Of a stretch of 64,000 bases of DNA, positions 40,378 through 48,811 are shown piece by piece; position 1 is the first letter of the stretch; each line of letters starts with the position of its first letter. Made by a program: the position numbers and the translations under genes. The notes beneath the pieces were generated by a model. It saw nothing but the letters and a program-made list of their open reading frames with translations, did no database searches and was not told where the DNA came from. The DNA comes from Escherichia coli (GTDB lineage Bacteria > Pseudomonadota > Gammaproteobacteria > Enterobacterales > Enterobacteriaceae). The DNA lies in assembly GCF_002854065.1 (NCBI RefSeq), contig NZ_CP024147.1. One strand, given 5' to 3'.

Positions 40378-40914
40378 ATGGCCAGCAGAGGCGTAAACAA
40401 GGTTATTCTCGTTGGTAATCTGGGTCAGGACCCGGAAGTACGCTACATGCCAAATGGTGGCGCAGTTGCCAACATTACGCTGGCTACTTCCGAATCCTGG
40501 CGTGATAAAGCGACCGGCGAGATGAAAGAGCAGACTGAATGGCACCGCGTTGTGCTGTTCGGCAAACTGGCAGAAGTGGCCAGCGAATATCTGCGTAAAG
40601 GTTCTCAGGTTTATATCGAAGGTCAGCTGCGTACCCGCAAATGGACCGATCAATCCGGCCAGGATCGCTACACCACAGAAGTCGTGGTGAACGTTGGCGG
40701 CACCATGCAGATGCTGGGTGGTCGTCAGGGTGGTGGCGCTCCGGCAGGTGGTAATATCGGTGGCGGTCAGCCGCAGGGCGGTTGGGGTCAGCCTCAGCAG
40801 CCGCAGGGTGGCAATCAGTTCAGCGGCGGCGCGCAGTCTCGCCCGCAGCAGTCCGCTCCGGCAGCGCCGTCTAACGAGCCGCCGATGGACTTTGATGACG
40901 ATATTCCGTTCTGA
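40378..40914 (+). CDS. ssb: single-stranded DNA-binding protein
   Basis: 178-aa [47 protein letters not shown]... ending DDDIPF. Confidence 0.97.
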
Positions 40915-40983
40915 TTTGTCATTAAAACAATAGGTTATATTGTTTTAAGGTGGATGATTAAAGCATCTGCCAGCCATAAAAAA

Positions 40984-41006
40984 GAAGCCTCCGTTATGGA
41001 GGCTTC
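40984..41006. terminator. terminator hairpin between convergent ssb and yjcB
   Basis: gaagcctcc-gtta-tggaggcttc hairpin preceded by A-run (T-run on minus strand). Confidence 0.65.
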
Positions 41007-41012
41007 TACGTA

Positions 41013-41294
41013 TCAGGTCAAAATCATTGGCCACTGTGGCGGTGTCTGATTCATCTCTTCTATCATCACCGACTCGATGTTGTGCCAGATGGCGGTGATG
41101 TCCGCCATTGTGATGCCAAGCAACCCCATTGCGAACCAGCAGGCGGAAACCACGCCCAGACCGCTGCTGATCACTGCAAGCCCGACATAATCAGACCGAC
41201 GAAAACGGATGTTGAGTGTGCTGGCCAGAAACATCATTACGGCACTAAGAAGTTGCCAGCGAAGAAGAACCATGCCAGTGGTGAGGGTAGCCAT
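41013..41294 (-). CDS. yjcB: small inner membrane protein YjcB
   Basis: Track ORF 41013..41393; start at MATLTTGMVLLRWQLLSAVMMFLAS gives 93 aa. Confidence 0.8.
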   Translation of the reverse strand: MATLTTGMVLLRWQLLSAVMMFLASTLNIRFRRSDYVGLAVISSGLGVVSACWFAMGLLGITMADITAIWHNIESVMIEEMNQTPPQWPMILT

Positions 41295-41722
41295 CAAACA
41301 ATTCCTCTGAAAAGAGCCGATGCCCTGGACAGCGCGGCGTTGTTCACGGGAGGCGTGGTACACTCTGGCTATCGCGGGGCTTGCAGAACACAAAAATGAA
41401 ACACTCTGTTTGTTTCATTAATTTTGTGAACTATATCACAATTGATTGTTTGTTAGCCATATTAGGCCGTGACTTTTATTGCTGTACAGATTATGTGGTT
41501 TTTCAGTGGCATTAAGGGTATATCTTCCCGCCGCCTCTGTATTCCTGTAGAAAATTAATTTTGAATATCAATGAATTATTTTCATCCAGGTGACGATTAA
41601 AAAGGTATCAATTTCAAATCAGGCAAAAGTGCTATTTATACCGTAAGATTTATCTAAAGACGTCGGTAGCCAGGGTTTCACCTTGCAATGGCCGGGTATA
41701 AACAGGCAGGAAATTGATAGCA

Positions 41723-43309
41723 ATGAGTCATCGTGCACGACACCAATTACTGGCGTTGCCGGGCATTATCTTTTTAGTTCTCTTTCCCATCATTCTGTCG
41801 CTATGGATTGCCTTCCTTTGGGCAAAATCAGAAGTGAATAATCAGCTCCGAACCTTTGCTCAACTGGCACTGGATAAATCCGAGCTGGTCATTCGCCAGG
41901 CAGATTTAGTGAGCGATGCAGCAGAACGCTATCAGGGGCAAGTTTGCTCTCCAGCCCATCAAAAGCGAATGTTAAATATTATTCGTGGCTATCTTTATAT
42001 TAATGAATTGATCTATGCCCGTGATAACCATTTTTTATGCTCATCGCTGATAGCGCCTGTAAACGGCTATACGATTGCACCGGCCGATTATGAGCGTGAC
42101 CCTAACGTTTCTATCTATTATTACCGCGATACGCCTTTTTTCTCTGGCTATAAAATGACCTATATGCAGCGGGGAAATTATGTGGCGGTTATCAACCCTC
42201 TCTTCTGGAGTGAAGTGATGTCTGATGACCCGACATTGCAATGGGGTGTGTATGATACGGTGACGAAAACCTTTTTCTCGTTAAGCAACGAGGCCTCGGC
42301 AGCAACGTTTTCTCCGCTGATTCATTTGAAGGATTTAACCGTACAAAGAAATGGCTATTTATATGCGACAGTTTATTCGACAAAACGCCCAATTGCAGCC
42401 ATTGTTGCGACTTCATATCAACGTCTTATAGCCCATTTTTATAATCATCTTATTTTTGCGTTACCCGCCGGTATTTTGGGGAGTCTTGTTCTGCTATTAC
42501 TCTGGCTACGTATTCGACAAAACTATTTGTCTCCCAAACGCAAATTGCAACGCGCCCTAGAAAAACATCAACTTTGTCTTTATTACCAGCCAATAATCGA
42601 TATCAAAACAGAAAAATGTATCGGTGCTGAAGCGTTATTACGTTGGCCTGGTGAGCAGGGGCAAGTTATGAATCCGGCAGAGTTTATTCCGCTGGCAGAA
42701 AAGGAGGGGATGATAGAACAGGTAACTGATTATATTATTGATAATGTCTTCCGCGATCTGGGCGCGTACCTTGCAACACATGCTGATCGCTATGTTTCTA
42801 TTAATCTGTCGGCCTCCGATTTTCATACGTCACGGTTGATAGCGCGAATCAATCAGAAAACAGAGCAATACGCGGTGCGTCCACAGCAAATTAAATTTGA
42901 AGTGACTGAACATGCATTTCTTGATGTCGACAAAATGACGCCGATTATTCTGGCTTTCCGCCAGGCCGGTTACGAAGTGGCAATTGATGATTTTGGTATT
43001 GGCTACTCTAACTTGCATAACCTTAAATCATTGAATGTCGATATTTTGAAAATCGACAAATCGTTTGTTGAGACGCTGACCACCCATAAAACCAGTCATT
43101 TGATTGCGGAACATATCATCGAGCTGGCGCACAGCCTGGGGTTAAAAACAATCGCTGAAGGCGTCGAAACGGAGGAGCAGGTTAACTGGCTGCGCAAACG
43201 CGGCGTGCGCTATTGCCAGGGATGGTTCTTTGCGAAGGCGATGCCGCCGCAGGTGTTTATGCAATGGATGGAGCAATTACCCGCGCGGGAGTTAACGCGC
43301 GGGCAATAA
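41723..43309 (+). CDS. pdeC: c-di-GMP phosphodiesterase (CSS-motif sensor + EAL domain)
   Basis: Track ORF 41714..43309; [21 protein letters not shown]...; EAL-domain motifs ([14 protein letters not shown]) visible; 528 aa. Confidence 0.92.
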
Positions 43310-43311
43310 AA

Positions 43312-43635
43312 CTACAGGCGGTGGCGATAATCGCTGGGAGTGCGATCAAACTGCCGACGGAAAACGCGGGAGAAGGTCTGCTGCGAGACATAACCCAGGT
43401 CCATTGCGATATCAAAAATCGGACGCTCGGTGGTGCGCAACTCAACGGCGGCCAGTAACAGGCGGCGTTGACGAATGTAATCGCCAAGCGTCTGATGCGT
43501 CACCGTGCGGAACATCCGTTGCAGGTACCACTTTGAATAGCCTGATTTTTTTGCGACGACATCAATGTTAAGCGGCTGGTCAATATGCTCGTCAATCCAT
43601 GCGATAAGATCCTGAATAATTTTCTGATGGGACAT
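43312..43635 (-). CDS. soxS: superoxide response AraC-family activator
   Basis: 107-aa ORF MSHQKIIQDLIAWIDEHIDQPLNIDVVAKKSGYSKWYLQRMF... matches SoxS. Confidence 0.97.
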   Translation of the reverse strand: MSHQKIIQDLIAWIDEHIDQPLNIDVVAKKSGYSKWYLQRMFRTVTHQTLGDYIRQRRLLLAAVELRTTERPIFDIAMDLGYVSQQTFSRVFRRQFDRTPSDYRHRL

Positions 43636-43691
43636 AAATCTGCCTCTTTTCAGTGTTCAGTTCGTTAATTCATCTGTTGGGGAGTATAATT

Positions 43692-43709
43692 CCTCAAGTT
43701 AACTTGAGG
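43692..43709. promoter_or_regulatory. SoxR operator within soxS promoter
   Basis: Perfect palindrome cctcaagttaacttgagg between divergent soxS and soxR. Confidence 0.9.
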
Positions 43710-43720
43710 TAAAGCGATTT

Positions 43721-44185
43721 ATGGAAAAGAAATTACCCCGCATTAAAGCGCTGCTAACCCCCGGCGAAGTGGCGAAACGCAGCGGTGTGGCGGTATCGGC
43801 GCTGCATTTCTATGAAAGCAAAGGGTTGATTACCAGTATCCGTAACAGCGGCAATCAGCGGCGTTATAAACGTGATGTGTTGCGATATGTCGCAATTATC
43901 AAAATTGCTCAGCGTATTGGCATTCCTCTCGCGACCATTGGTGAAGCGTTTGGCGTGTTGCCCGAAGGGCATACGTTAAGTGCCAAAGAGTGGAAACAGC
44001 TTTCGTCCCAATGGCGAGAAGAGTTGGATCGGCGCATTCATACCTTAGTGGCGCTGCGTGACGAACTGGACGGATGTATTGGTTGTGGCTGCCTTTCGCG
44101 CAGTGATTGCCCGTTGCGTAACCCGGGCGACCGCTTAGGAGAAGAAGGTACCGGCGCACGCTTGCTGGAAGATGAACAAAACTAA
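43721..44185 (+). CDS. soxR: redox-sensing MerR-family regulator SoxR
   Basis: 154-aa [39 protein letters not shown]... with [12 protein letters not shown] [2Fe-2S] motif. Confidence 0.97.
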
Positions 44186-44320
44186 AGCGCCACAAGGGCG
44201 CTTTAGTTTGTTTTCCGGTCTTTGTCTTTCTCTCTATCCCGCTGGTACACAGGAGGGTTTCCCCCGACGTCAACACACCTCATTCGAGCACGTGGTGGAG
44301 GTTCCGGTTGGTGTTGATGC
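44180..44320 (-). ncRNA. ryjA: possible small RNA RyjA (position inferred)
   Basis: In K-12 ryjA lies antisense immediately downstream of soxR (from memory); bidirectional hairpin aaagcgccacaagggcgcttt with T-runs on both strands at 44185..44205 would serve as its terminator; boundaries not verifiable by eye. Confidence 0.3.
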
Positions 44321-44460
44321 TTTAATTGTATGTCACCGACGTTTCTTCGCCAGTGTAAAAGTATACTTTTTAGCCGCAATATTTTTGTCATCTCAGACGA
44401 TTTTTTATCGCAATCCTGAACGGTATACGGCTCGATAACGCTGCAATCTTGCGCATCGAC

Positions 44461-44476
44461 GATAACGTTTGCGCAT
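44461..44476. promoter_or_regulatory. putative PurR operator (distal)
   Basis: gataacgtttgcgcat contains AACGTTTGCG core of the PurR box palindrome (gcAAACGTTTgc). Confidence 0.4.
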
Positions 44477-44602
44477 CAATTGCCTGGTTTTTCATCGTCA
44501 AGACAATAAAAGAGAAAAAAGCAGCAAACTTCGGTTGAAAAAGCCGCTATGATCGCCGGATAATCGTTTGCTTTTTTTTACCACCCGTTTTGTATGCGCG
44601 GA

Positions 44603-44618
44603 GCTAAACGTTTGCTTT
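44603..44618. promoter_or_regulatory. putative PurR operator (proximal) upstream of ghxP
   Basis: gctaaacgtttgcttt contains AAACGTTTGC core. Confidence 0.45.
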
Positions 44619-44731
44619 TTTGCGACGCAGCAAATTGTCGCAAACCTGGAGCGGGAAGATAACGTTTCGCTGGCAGGGGATTGTCCGCCACGCATCTTGA
44701 CGAAAATTAAACTCTCAGGGGATGTTCTCTT

Positions 44732-46081
44732 ATGTCTACGCCATCAGCGCGTACCGGCGGTTCACTCGACGCCTGGTTTAAAATTTCACAACGTGGAAGC
44801 ACTGTCCGTCAGGAAGTGGTTGCCGGGTTAACAACGTTTCTGGCGATGGTCTACTCGGTTATCGTCGTTCCAGGCATGTTGGGTAAAGCGGGCTTCCCGC
44901 CTGCGGCAGTTTTCGTTGCGACCTGTCTGGTTGCCGGACTCGGTTCTATCGTGATGGGTCTGTGGGCTAATCTGCCGTTGGCGATTGGTTGCGCCATCTC
45001 CCTGACGGCGTTTACCGCATTCAGCCTGGTGCTGGGGCAACATATTAGCGTACCTGTCGCGCTGGGTGCCGTGTTCCTGATGGGTGTGCTGTTTACGGTA
45101 ATTTCTGCCACGGGTATCCGTAGCTGGATTTTGCGCAACTTGCCGCACGGTGTGGCGCACGGCACGGGGATCGGTATCGGTCTGTTCCTGCTGCTCATTG
45201 CCGCTAACGGTGTCGGTCTGGTGATTAAAAACCCGCTTGATGGTCTGCCCGTTGCGCTGGGTGATTTCGCGACCTTCCCGGTGATTATGTCACTGGTAGG
45301 TCTGGCGGTGATCATCGGCCTGGAAAAACTGAAAGTCCCTGGTGGCATTCTGCTGACCATTATCGGTATCTCAATTGTCGGTTTGATCTTCGATCCTAAC
45401 GTCCATTTCTCCGGCGTTTTCGCCATGCCTTCATTGAGCGATGAAAACGGCAATTCACTGATTGGCAGCCTGGACATTATGGGCGCGCTGAATCCTGTAG
45501 TCCTGCCAAGCGTTCTGGCGCTGGTGATGACGGCAGTATTTGATGCCACCGGAACTATCCGTGCCGTCGCCGGCCAGGCGAACCTGCTGGATAAAGATGG
45601 GCAGATCATCGACGGCGGGAAAGCACTGACCACTGACTCCATGAGCAGCGTTTTCTCTGGCCTGGTGGGTGCAGCTCCGGCAGCGGTATACATCGAGTCT
45701 GCGGCGGGTACGGCGGCGGGCGGTAAAACCGGGTTGACGGCTATCACCGTTGGCGTGCTGTTCCTGCTGATTCTGTTCCTCTCTCCGCTTTCTTACCTCG
45801 TTCCGGGGTATGCAACGGCTCCGGCGCTGATGTACGTTGGCCTGCTAATGCTGAGCAACGTGGCGAAAATCGACTTTGCTGATTTTGTTGATGCGATGGC
45901 GGGTCTGGTTACGGCGGTATTCATCGTGCTGACCTGTAACATCGTAACAGGCATCATGATCGGCTTCGCGACCCTGGTGATTGGTCGTCTGGTTTCCGGC
46001 GAATGGCGCAAGTTGAACATCGGTACGGTCGTTATCGCCGTGGCGCTGGTGACCTTCTATGCGGGTGGCTGGGCTATCTAA
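44732..46081 (+). CDS. ghxP: guanine/hypoxanthine permease (NCS2/AzgA family)
   Basis: 449-aa [51 protein letters not shown]... Confidence 0.93.
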
Positions 46082-48016: not shown

Positions 48017-48520
48017 TTATTGATAGTGTTTTATGTTCAGATAATGCCCGATGACTTTGTCATGCAGCTCCACCGATTTTGAGAACGACAGCGACTTCCG
48101 TCCCAGCCGTGCCAGGTGCTGCCTCAGATTCAGGTTATGCCGCTCAATTCGCTGCGTATATCGCTTGCTGATTACGTGCAGCTTTCCCTTCAGGCGGGAT
48201 TCATACAGCGGCCAGCCATCCGTCATCCATATCACCACGTCAAAGGGTGACAGCAGGCTCATAAGACGCCCCAGCGTCGCCATAGTGCGTTCACCGAATA
48301 CGTGCGCAACAACCGTCTTCCGGAGCCTGTCATACGCGTAAAACAGCCAGCGCTGGCGCGATTTAGCCCCGACGTATCCCCACTGTTCGTCCATTTCCGC
48401 GCAGACGATGACGTCACTGCCCGGCTGTATGCGCGAGGTTACCGACTGCGGCCTGAGTTTTTTAAATGGCGGAAAATCGTGTTGAGGCCAACGCCCATAA
48501 TGCGGGCGGTTGCCCGGCAT
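48017..48520 (-). CDS. insB: IS1 InsB (expressed as InsAB' transposase by -1 frameshift)
   Basis: 167-aa [57 protein letters not shown]...; overlaps insA 3' end. Confidence 0.95.
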
Positions 48521-48714
48521 CCAACGCCATTCATGGCCATATCAATGATTTTCTGGTGCGTACCGGGTTGAGAAGCGGTGTAAGTGAACTGCAGTTGCCA
48601 TGTTTTACGGCAGTGAGAGCAGAGATAGCGCTGATGTCCGGCAGTGCTTTTGCCGTTACGCACCACCCCGTCAGTAGCTGAACAGGAGGGACAGCTGATA
48701 GAAACAGAAGCCAC
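48439..48714 (-). CDS. insA: IS1 InsA
   Basis: 91-aa [46 protein letters not shown]... Confidence 0.95.
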
Positions 48715-48811
48715 TGGAGCACCTCAAAAACACCATCATACACTAAATCAGTAAGTTGGCAGCATCACCTCTCTTTTAAAGTCATTTCATTGGCTGTTCT
48801 TCGACTTAACC

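What the first reader, a model, noticed from the sequence alone, without database searches (positions are those of the whole stretch)
43309..43312. Convergent pdeC and soxS coding regions end 2 bp apart with no terminator between them
The pdeC stop ends at 43309 and the soxS stop codon begins at 43312 on the opposite strand. Transcripts of each gene must therefore read into the other's coding region, which allows antisense interference between a c-di-GMP phosphodiesterase and the superoxide-response activator.
Basis: seen in the sequence. Interest (0 to 1): 0.25.

Follow-up and report, generated by a model that had tools for sequence, protein, structure and literature searches.

The report
soxS terminator hairpin inside pdeC's end
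The E. coli genes pdeC and soxS really do end 2 bp apart, but this layout is already annotated and catalogued, and soxS has a conserved end-forming hairpin buried in the last codons of pdeC, so the case is largely ordinary.

Summary
pdeC ends at 43309, soxS (minus strand) spans 43312-43635, and 2 bp lie between the stop codons. RefSeq annotates K-12 MG1655 the same way.

"No terminator" holds only for those 2 bp. A GC-rich hairpin (43276-43307) sits inside the last 11 codons of pdeC. It is stronger on the soxS-sense strand. It is conserved with compensatory changes across Escherichia, Salmonella and Citrobacter. It survives two independent natural deletions of pdeC. A published E. coli 3'-end map puts the soxS mRNA end at window 43269, 7 nt past the hairpin. 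The soxS 3' UTR is therefore 43 nt, 41 of them antisense to pdeC coding sequence and stop codon.

A short obligatory transcript overlap is thus real. A 2025 genome-wide map already lists pdeC-soxS among 165 convergent "excludons" of MG1655. No pdeC 3' end has been mapped. I found no canonical terminator or Rho-loading-like composition downstream of pdeC. Regulatory interference is untested, and in Klebsiella the pdeC homologue is induced by paraquat and depends on SoxRS, which argues against simple mutual exclusion.

Verdict: real, conserved, already known in outline, low to moderate interest.

The parts
41723..43309 (+). pdeC (yjcC) coding sequence, 528 aa. It encodes a c-di-GMP phosphodiesterase with a CSS-motif domain and an EAL domain. 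The EAL domain ends at residue 505, leaving a 23-aa C-terminal tail.
   Evidence: RefSeq annotation of a matching strain; Pfam CSS-motif and EAL hits.
43310..43311 (.). The 2-bp spacer (AA) between the two stop codons.
   Evidence: Read directly from the sequence; same spacing in K-12.
43312..43635 (-). soxS coding sequence, 107 aa, with stop codon TAG here (TAA in K-12). The helix-turn-helix domain runs to residue 106, so the protein has no dispensable C-terminal tail.
43276..43307 (-). GC-rich hairpin with 12-nt arms (43276-43287 and 43296-43307), an 8-nt loop and the core CCCGCGCG/CGCGCGGG. It is encoded by pdeC codons 519-528 ([10 protein letters not shown]). I propose it is the element that forms the soxS mRNA 3' end.
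   Evidence: Inverted repeat found. Folding gives -22.5 kcal/mol (z = -4.5) on the soxS-sense strand against -18.9 on the pdeC-sense strand. Across 23 species 85.9% of pair cells are paired, against 33-50% when partners are slid, and four pairs show compensatory changes. Only 74.3% are paired on the pdeC-sense strand. The Pro codon in the stem is CCC in 22 of 23 species.
43269..43311 (-). soxS 3' UTR of 43 nt. Positions 43269-43309 (41 nt) are antisense to the last 13-14 codons and the stop codon of pdeC. The published 3' terminus is at 43269, 7 nt past the base of the hairpin.
   Evidence: TRS 3'-terminus table for cells in LB: soxS primary terminus at K-12 4277017 on the minus strand.
43100..43268 (-). 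C-rich, G-poor stretch of soxS-sense RNA downstream of the hairpin (C/G ratio 1.45-1.7). This composition resembles a Rho loading site (rut) and could provide back-up Rho-dependent termination of soxS read-through.
   Evidence: Composition computed. The link to Rho is inference only.
43310..43635 (+). Path of any pdeC read-through, antisense to the whole of soxS. The RNA is G-rich (C/G ratio 0.6-1.0) and I found no canonical terminator here.
   Evidence: I found no mapped pdeC 3' end.
41468..41482 (-). Motif matching the MarA ChIP-seq site reported in the yjcB-yjcC intergenic region of enterotoxigenic E. coli. It is a possible MarA/SoxS/Rob input to pdeC.
   Evidence: It is an exact match, but 15 of 100 shuffles also gave at least one match at up to 2 mismatches.

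Best explanation
The two coding regions abut because the element that forms the 3' end of soxS mRNA lies inside the last 11 codons of pdeC rather than in an intergenic spacer. That element is a GC-rich stem-loop at 43276-43307, which works on the soxS-sense (minus) strand.

soxS transcription runs 43 nt past its stop codon and ends about 7 nt after the hairpin, at 43269. This gives a short 3' UTR, 41 nt of which are complementary to the pdeC reading frame and stop codon. Because the hairpin sits upstream of the pdeC stop codon, every full-length pdeC mRNA must contain the complement of that UTR. A minimum 41-nt sense/antisense overlap is therefore built in.

Shown here or in the literature: the anatomy, the conservation and covariation of the hairpin, its bias towards the soxS-sense strand, its retention when pdeC is deleted, and the position of the published soxS 3' end.

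Inferred: that the hairpin causes the 3' end. It could do so by hairpin-driven termination despite a weak U-tract, or by blocking 3'-to-5' exonucleases after Rho terminates in the C-rich RNA just downstream. It is also inferred that pdeC transcripts read further into soxS antisense, since no terminator or Rho-loading-like composition lies in their path. Any effect of the overlap on expression is unproven and probably small.
For: - Geometry is confirmed in the window, in a strain identical over the 851 bases compared, and in K-12.
- The hairpin is stable on the soxS-sense strand: -22.5 kcal/mol, z = -4.5, with none of 200 shuffles folding as well.
- A published RNAtag-seq/TRS map gives the soxS primary 3' terminus at K-12 4277017 on the minus strand. 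That is window 43269, 7 nt beyond the stem.
- In an ungapped alignment of 23 Escherichia, Salmonella, Citrobacter and Intestinirhabdus sequences, 85.9% of pair cells are paired, against 33-50% for slid registers. Four pairs carry compensatory changes, and none of 500 shuffles reached the observed score.
- G.U pairs make the soxS-sense strand better paired than the pdeC-sense strand: 85.9% against 74.3%, with covariation scores of 0.295 against 0.152.
- Synonymous sites are held in the stem. Pro is CCC in 22 of 23 species and Gly is GGG or GGA in 21 of 23. The intervening amino acids vary freely: [27 protein letters not shown].
- The hairpin lies in a tail beyond the EAL domain.
- Two independent pdeC deletions keep the terminal 70-85 nt with the hairpin: Escherichia sp. 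MOD1-EC7003 and S. enterica subsp. arizonae. Intestinirhabdus has no detectable pdeC beside soxS and keeps the hairpin followed by UUUU.
- Across 66 sequences with an abutting junction (65 fetched species loci plus this window), the 90 nt after soxS hold a hairpin of median -15 kcal/mol, against -5.8 in 528 control windows of pdeC antisense. It is the best of nine windows in 54 of 66, although the hairpin differs between clades.
- pdeC-soxS is listed as a convergent pair with overlapping transcription in MG1655.
Against: - In E. coli the tail after the stem (UAAUUGCUCCA after the GC core, UGCUCCA after the extended stem) is not U-rich, and the consensus terminator scan did not report the site. 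Classical intrinsic termination would be weak.
- The soxS 3' end comes from one data set, from uninduced cells in LB, made with a method whose resolution is a few nucleotides. An independent Term-seq study did not list it.
- The 3' end could arise by processing rather than termination.
- The species compared are related, so the shuffle statistics overstate independence.
- The hairpin also folds on the pdeC-sense strand (-18.9 kcal/mol), so a function on that strand or at the DNA level is not excluded.
Confidence: 0.72

Rival explanations
1. Nothing stops either polymerase, both transcripts run deep into the opposite gene, and the arrangement acts as a regulatory excludon. On this view soxS induction represses pdeC, and pdeC expression represses soxS, through polymerase collision or RNase III cleavage of the RNA duplex.
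For: - The 2-bp gap is real, and the pair is listed among convergent excludons of MG1655.
- The two mature mRNAs share at least 41 nt of perfect complementarity.
- No terminator or Rho-loading-like composition follows pdeC.
- The tight junction is conserved in 65 of the 80 species loci.
Against: - A conserved hairpin and a mapped 3' end limit soxS entry to 43 nt, within a pdeC tail outside any domain.
- The supplements held for the RNase III / p19 double-stranded RNA survey have no entry for soxS, soxR, yjcC or pdeC.
- In Klebsiella, yjcC is induced by paraquat and depends positively on SoxRS, which is co-expression rather than exclusion.
- The junction spacing drifts between a 16-nt overlap and a 15-nt gap, and pdeC has been lost next to soxS several times. 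This suggests tolerance of the arrangement rather than a tuned switch.
Confidence: 0.15
2. soxS transcription is ended by Rho in the C-rich, untranslated RNA antisense to pdeC. The hairpin only stops 3'-to-5' exonucleases, which trim the RNA back to 43269.
For: - The tail after the hairpin lacks a U-tract.
- soxS-sense RNA for about 170 nt beyond the hairpin has a C/G ratio of 1.45-1.7, which resembles a Rho loading site, and it is not translated.
- From my own knowledge of Dar and Sorek 2018, whose supplements were not held: ends of Rho-terminated transcripts in E. coli are commonly trimmed back to a stem-loop.
Against: - No data with a Rho inhibitor (bicyclomycin) were found for this site.
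- In Salmonella and Intestinirhabdus the same hairpin is followed by U-rich tails (UUUGUUGU, CCUUUUC), as in intrinsic terminators.
- A 3' end 7 nt past the stem also fits direct termination.
Confidence: 0.3
3. The hairpin is a collision-type bidirectional terminator of the kind Ju et al. described in 2019. It pauses polymerases from both directions and defines the 3' ends of both pdeC and soxS.
For: - The hairpin folds on both strands (-22.5 and -18.9 kcal/mol) and lacks U-tracts. The Liu laboratory preprint describes this class as not resembling intrinsic terminators and not depending on Rho.
- A pdeC end 7-9 nt past the stem would fall just after its stop codon.
Against: - Pairing is clearly worse on the pdeC-sense strand across species.
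- By inference, a ribosome finishing pdeC would cover and melt the hairpin on that strand.
- The same preprint reports that such termination is less efficient at lowly expressed pairs. From general knowledge, pdeC is weakly expressed.
- I found no mapped plus-strand 3' end.
Confidence: 0.2
4. The inverted repeat is conserved for reasons unrelated to RNA 3' ends. It could reflect selection on the PdeC C-terminal peptide, a protein-binding DNA palindrome, or chance in GC-rich coding sequence.
For: The residues P-A and G-Q are conserved in the tail. The region is GC-rich.
Against: - Synonymous positions are fixed (CCC in 22 of 23 species) while the amino acids between the arms vary.
- Compensatory changes and G.U pairs are specific to one strand.
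- The hairpin is kept after pdeC is deleted.
- Clades that lack this hairpin have a different one at the same place.
Confidence: 0.04

Closest known systems
Convergent excludon: overlapping 3' UTRs of neighbouring convergent genes (concept of Sesto et al. 2013; E. coli map in ExcludonFinder, NAR 2025, PMC12288877)
   Same: The genes are convergent neighbours, and the terminator of one lies inside the transcription unit of the other, so overlap occurs whenever both are transcribed. The pdeC-soxS pair itself is in the published list of 165 for MG1655.
   Different: The soxS terminator lies inside the neighbour's coding sequence, not just its UTR. Mutually exclusive expression and RNase III processing, which give the concept its name, have not been shown for this pair. 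The Klebsiella data point to co-induction instead.
Intrinsic (Rho-independent) terminator
   Same: There is a GC-rich stem-loop of 8-12 bp, and the RNA 3' end lies about 7 nt past the stem.
   Different: E. coli has no U-tract after the stem, and the consensus scan did not report the site. Salmonella and Intestinirhabdus versions have more U-rich tails.
Overlapping bidirectional terminators between convergent genes (Ju, Li and Liu 2019; collision model in bioRxiv 10.1101/2022.10.23.513370)
   Same: A hairpin without canonical U-tracts sits at the boundary of a convergent pair.
   Different: Only the soxS-direction 3' end is documented, and the structure is biased towards one strand. The hairpin lies in translated sequence for the other gene, and that gene is weakly expressed.
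The neighbouring soxR / sraL (ryjA) pair in the same window
   Same: It is also a convergent overlap at the sox locus. The sRNA (44178-44318, minus strand) overlaps the end of soxR (44185) by 8 nt.
   Different: That pair shares a textbook bidirectional intrinsic terminator: a 13-bp perfect stem at 44179-44209 with U-runs on both strands. The contrast shows what the pdeC/soxS junction lacks.

Membership tests
Convergent excludon | Two adjacent genes on opposite strands with their 3' ends facing each other | tested here: met
   pdeC 41723-43309 (+) and soxS 43312-43635 (-).
Convergent excludon | The transcripts of the two genes overlap | tested here: met
   A published soxS 3' terminus lies 43 nt past its stop codon, inside pdeC. 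The pair is listed as overlapping in at least 50% of the RNA-seq samples analysed. I did not re-analyse the raw reads.
Convergent excludon | Reciprocal (mutually exclusive) expression, or RNase III processing of the duplex | tested here: inconclusive
   The supplements held for the p19 double-stranded RNA survey have no entry for soxS, soxR, yjcC or pdeC. Klebsiella yjcC is co-induced with soxS by paraquat. No E. coli experiment was found.
Intrinsic terminator | A stable GC-rich stem-loop in the nascent RNA | tested here: met
   -22.5 kcal/mol, z = -4.5 on the soxS-sense strand; covariation across 23 species.
Intrinsic terminator | A U-rich tract immediately 3' of the stem | tested here: not met
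   The E. coli tail is UGCUCCAU (UAAUUGCU after the GC core). It was not reported by the scan requiring at least 5 T in 8 bases.
Intrinsic terminator | RNA 3' end about 7-9 nt downstream of the stem | tested here: met
   The terminus at window 43269 is 7 nt from the stem base at 43276. This rests on a single data set.
Bidirectional (collision-type) terminator | Defined, overlapping 3' ends on both strands flanking one hairpin | not testable with these tools
   Only the minus-strand end is on record. No plus-strand 3' end between K-12 4276900 and 4277499 appears in the two data sets searched.
Rho-dependent terminator (back-up for soxS) | C-rich, G-poor untranslated RNA upstream of the release sites, and sensitivity to bicyclomycin | tested here: inconclusive
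   The composition fits, with a C/G ratio of 1.45-1.7 over about 170 nt. Bicyclomycin sensitivity could not be tested.

The most novel reading that the evidence does not exclude
The soxS end-forming hairpin, encoded within pdeC's own last codons, makes the two mRNAs obligate partial antisense partners. On this reading, the large burst of soxS transcription under superoxide stress would cut off or destabilise pdeC mRNA near its stop codon, either by polymerase collision that yields non-stop transcripts or by RNase III cleavage of the 41-bp duplex. That would couple c-di-GMP turnover and biofilm control post-transcriptionally to the SoxRS response, on top of any SoxS/MarA input at the pdeC promoter. 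In the other direction, pdeC read-through, which has no evident stop, could run antisense across all of soxS and into soxR. That would be a non-contiguous pdeC...soxR transcription unit.
Probability: 0.12. Interest if true: 0.45.

Novelty: already known. Interest (0 to 1): 0.2.

Why it matters
If the overlap had regulatory force, it would link the superoxide stress activator SoxS directly, in cis, to a redox-related c-di-GMP phosphodiesterase that affects biofilm formation. As things stand, the arrangement is one of many convergent E. coli pairs whose terminator lies inside the neighbour. The added value of this analysis is modest:

- It shows that a terminator-like hairpin can be maintained by selection inside another gene's coding sequence, fixing rare codons and shaping that protein's C-terminal tail.
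- It shows that deletions of the neighbouring gene spare the hairpin.

This is a useful caution for annotators and genome engineers. Deleting or recoding the 3' end of pdeC would probably alter the formation of the soxS mRNA 3' end.

Tried and rejected
- A consensus scan for promoters and terminators over 41400-44800 found nothing at the junction.
- An Rfam search of 40500-45500 at E-value up to 1 found no family at the junction. It found only sraL at 44178-44318 plus weak chance hits.
- I looked for pdeC or soxS 3' ends in several published data sets:
  - The Term-seq supplements of Adams et al. 2021 list only an end inside the soxS start codon.
  - The SMRT-Cappable-seq supplements mention neither soxS, soxR, yjcC nor pdeC.
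  - The supplements of Dar and Sorek 2018 are not held.
  - Ju et al. 2019 is not held.
  - The ExcludonFinder supplements are not held.
- The p19 / RNase III double-stranded RNA survey has no entry for the pair.
- Folding the plus strand inside soxS antisense, including the run of seven T at about 43546-43552, gave no structure better than shuffled sequence. I therefore rejected it as a pdeC terminator.
- I rejected selection on the PdeC peptide as the cause of the repeat's conservation, because synonymous sites are fixed and the hairpin outlives pdeC deletion.
- A literature search for a described soxS terminator found nothing relevant.
Full report
**What is there**

The window is Escherichia coli chromosome. 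An 851-base query around the site matched 5425 of 5426 complete E. coli genomes, five of them at 100% identity. The sequence at 43300-43319 reads cgggCAATAAaaCTAcaggc. The pdeC stop codon TAA ends at 43309, and two bases follow. CTA at 43312-43314 is the reverse complement of the soxS stop codon TAG.

RefSeq annotation of a strain identical over the 851 bases compared gives pdeC at 41723-43309 (+), soxS at 43312-43635 (-) and soxR at 43721-44185 (+), with locus coordinates equal to window coordinates. K-12 MG1655 has the same 2-bp spacing: pdeC ends at 4277057 and soxS spans 4277060-4277383. Over 43180-43420 the window differs from K-12 only in the soxS stop codon, TAG against TAA. K-12 data therefore transfer with an offset of 4233748.

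**Is it more than chance?**

I fetched soxS loci from 80 species of Enterobacteriaceae and measured the distance between the two stop codons.

- 19 loci have +2. These are all the Escherichia and Citrobacter loci that still have a full-length pdeC.
- 15 have a 16-nt overlap: Klebsiella, Raoultella, Trabulsiella, Pluralibacter and others.
- 9 have a 4-nt overlap.
- 22 lie elsewhere between a 14-nt overlap and a 15-nt gap.
- In 11 loci pdeC is not intact next to soxS: 10 gave no hit to the pdeC C-terminal probe, and Escherichia sp. MOD1-EC7003 keeps only the last 28 codons.
- The other four loci give +56, +449, +531 or +712; three of them are Kosakonia.

The tight 3'-to-3' junction is therefore old and tolerated, but its exact spacing drifts. 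Within the first 50 kb of this window the other nine convergent pairs are 34-502 bp apart, so this pair is the local extreme.

A 12-nt inverted repeat with an 8-nt loop lies at 43276-43287 and 43296-43307, with the core CCCGCGCG/CGCGCGGG. That places it inside the last ten codons of pdeC plus the first base of its stop codon. On the soxS-sense (minus) strand a 51-nt stretch folds at -22.5 kcal/mol (z = -4.5, none of 200 shuffles as stable). On the pdeC-sense strand the figure is -18.9 kcal/mol, with an A.C mismatch in the stem.

A published method for finding transcript termini from RNAtag-seq data (TRS, PMC10687069, Supplementary Data 4) reports the soxS primary 3' terminus in LB at K-12 4277017 on the minus strand, with a 3' UTR length of 44 by their count. 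That position is window 43269. It lies 7 nt beyond the base of the extended stem and 43 nt beyond the soxS stop codon.

**Conservation of the hairpin**

The 69 nt around the junction align without gaps in 23 sequences from Escherichia, Salmonella, Citrobacter and Intestinirhabdus.

- On the soxS-sense strand, 85.9% of pair cells form standard pairs, against 33-50% when the 3' partners are slid by 1-3 columns.
- Four of the 12 pairs show changes on both sides (UA/CG, UA/GC, and GC/UG/AU/CG).
- None of 500 column shuffles reached the observed pairing or covariation score.
- The same helix counted on the pdeC-sense strand is only 74.3% paired, with half the covariation score. Many positions are G.U on the soxS strand and therefore A.C on the other strand. 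That asymmetry indicates which RNA the structure serves.
- Translating the pdeC frame shows a variable tail ([37 protein letters not shown]). The codons forming the GC core are nevertheless held, down to their synonymous positions: Pro is CCC in 22 of 23 species and Gly is GGG or GGA in 21 of 23.
- Pfam places the end of the EAL domain at residue 505 of 528, so the hairpin (codons 519-528) lies in a tail outside any domain.

**Natural experiments**

- In Escherichia sp. MOD1-EC7003, soxS is followed by only the last 28 codons of pdeC and then directly by yjcB and ssb.
- In S. enterica subsp. arizonae, a remnant of about 70 nt is followed by yjcB.
- Both of these deletions keep the hairpin.
- Intestinirhabdus has no detectable pdeC beside soxS and keeps the hairpin followed by CCUUUUC.
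- Pseudocitrobacter and Kluyvera, which lack pdeC beside soxS, have unrelated hairpins immediately after soxS.
- Enterobacter and Lelliottia have shorter pdeC tails and carry a different hairpin (GCUGCUGCCAGG...CCUGCGGCGGC) 20-32 nt after soxS. Klebsiella pneumoniae has GCGCGGGAG...CUCCCGCGC.

Across 66 sequences with an abutting junction (65 fetched species loci plus this window), the best hairpin in the 90 nt after soxS has a median of -15 kcal/mol. The median in 528 control windows elsewhere in pdeC antisense is -5.8. The junction hairpin is the best of nine windows in 54 of 66 sequences. These species are related, so the nominal P value overstates independence, but the replacement of one hairpin by another at the same place argues for function.

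**How it probably works**

soxS mRNA ends at a hairpin embedded in pdeC. Its 43-nt 3' UTR (43311 to 43269) is antisense, over 41 nt, to the last 13-14 codons and the stop codon of pdeC.

Whether the hairpin terminates transcription directly is uncertain. The E. coli tail (UGCUCCA) is not U-rich, and the consensus scan missed the site. The soxS-sense RNA beyond the hairpin is C-rich and G-poor, with a C/G ratio of 1.45-1.7 over about 170 nt. It is also untranslated, so Rho termination followed by exonuclease trimming back to the hairpin is a serious alternative.

For pdeC the picture is emptier.

- The hairpin lies before the pdeC stop codon, where a terminating ribosome would cover it.
- The tail on that strand is A-rich (CAAUAAAAC).
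- The RNA downstream is G-rich, with a C/G ratio of 0.6-1.0.
- No structure better than shuffled sequence lies within soxS antisense.
- I found no pdeC 3' end in the two 3'-end data sets I could search by coordinate, and SMRT-Cappable-seq lists none of the genes.

pdeC transcripts therefore probably do read some distance into soxS antisense. SoxS has no dispensable C-terminal tail, since its HTH domain reaches residue 106 of 107.

**Comparison with what is known**

The pair is already listed by name, as pdeC-soxS, among the 165 convergent "excludons" of MG1655 in ExcludonFinder (NAR 2025, PMC12288877, Table 1). That study reports that 146 of the 165 have predicted terminators lying within the neighbour's transcription unit. 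The yjbJ-zur pair of this same window is on the list too.

The Liu laboratory describes hairpins without U-tracts between convergent genes as collision-assisted bidirectional terminators, which work less efficiently at lowly expressed pairs. The pdeC/soxS hairpin resembles these but is biased to one strand, and it has only one documented 3' end.

Right next door, soxR and the sRNA sraL/ryjA share a textbook bidirectional intrinsic terminator that overlaps the soxR stop codon. The contrast shows what the pdeC/soxS junction lacks.

**Does the overlap regulate anything?**

I found no direct evidence. The RNase III / p19 double-stranded RNA survey has no entry for these genes. In Klebsiella pneumoniae, yjcC (the pdeC homologue) is induced by paraquat, and its expression falls when soxR or soxS is deleted (PMC3720812; reviewed). 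The MarA ChIP-seq motif reported between yjcB and yjcC in enterotoxigenic E. coli is present exactly at window 41468-41482. The known link between the two genes is therefore positive and acts through the promoter, which is not what mutual antisense exclusion predicts.

**Verdict**

It is partly wrong, because there is a conserved end-forming hairpin, only it lies inside pdeC rather than between the genes. The arrangement is annotated and catalogued. The strand-biased covariation, the codon fixation and the deletion-sparing of the hairpin are small additions to what was known. Interest is low to moderate.

Noticed in passing
window 44178-44318 (-), hairpin 44179-44209: The sRNA sraL/ryjA (Rfam RF01408, 153 bits) overlaps the last 8 nt of soxR. 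The two share a perfect 13-bp hairpin with U-runs on both strands, which is a canonical bidirectional terminator. Both sox genes therefore have convergent partners that overlap their 3' ends.
   Followed up: partly
window 43634 (-) = K-12 4277382: The Term-seq data of Adams et al. 2021 list a strong RNA 3' end (score 43001) inside the soxS start codon. This implies an abundant short RNA derived from the 5' UTR, or premature termination or processing at the start of soxS. The paper's main text does not mention soxS.
   Followed up: no
window 41468-41482 (-): This is an exact copy of the MarA-binding motif GCAATAAAAGTCACG reported by ChIP-seq between yjcB and yjcC in enterotoxigenic E. coli. It lies about 240 bp upstream of pdeC and is a possible MarA/SoxS/Rob input to pdeC or yjcB.
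   Followed up: partly
L003 2824-3060; L006 2824-3224: Escherichia sp. MOD1-EC7003 and Salmonella enterica subsp. arizonae have lost pdeC by independent deletions. In both, soxS is followed by a 70-85 nt remnant of the pdeC 3' end, including the hairpin, and then by yjcB.
   Followed up: yes
L059, L072, L073, L045, L023 and others, around locus positions 2815-2830: In Klebsiella, Raoultella, Trabulsiella, Pluralibacter and Yokenella the soxS and pdeC coding regions overlap by 16 nt, both ending in TGA. In Lelliottia, one Enterobacter asburiae genome and several unnamed Enterobacter isolates they overlap by 4 nt.
   Followed up: partly
window 25450-26216: The convergent pair yjbJ/zur (41-bp gap) in this window is also on the published E. 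coli excludon list.
   Followed up: no
window 26535-27558, 35666-36379, 48031-48728: In the matching RefSeq strain, a DUF2713 gene is frameshifted, aphA carries an internal stop codon, and an IS1B element lies downstream of yjcE.
   Followed up: no
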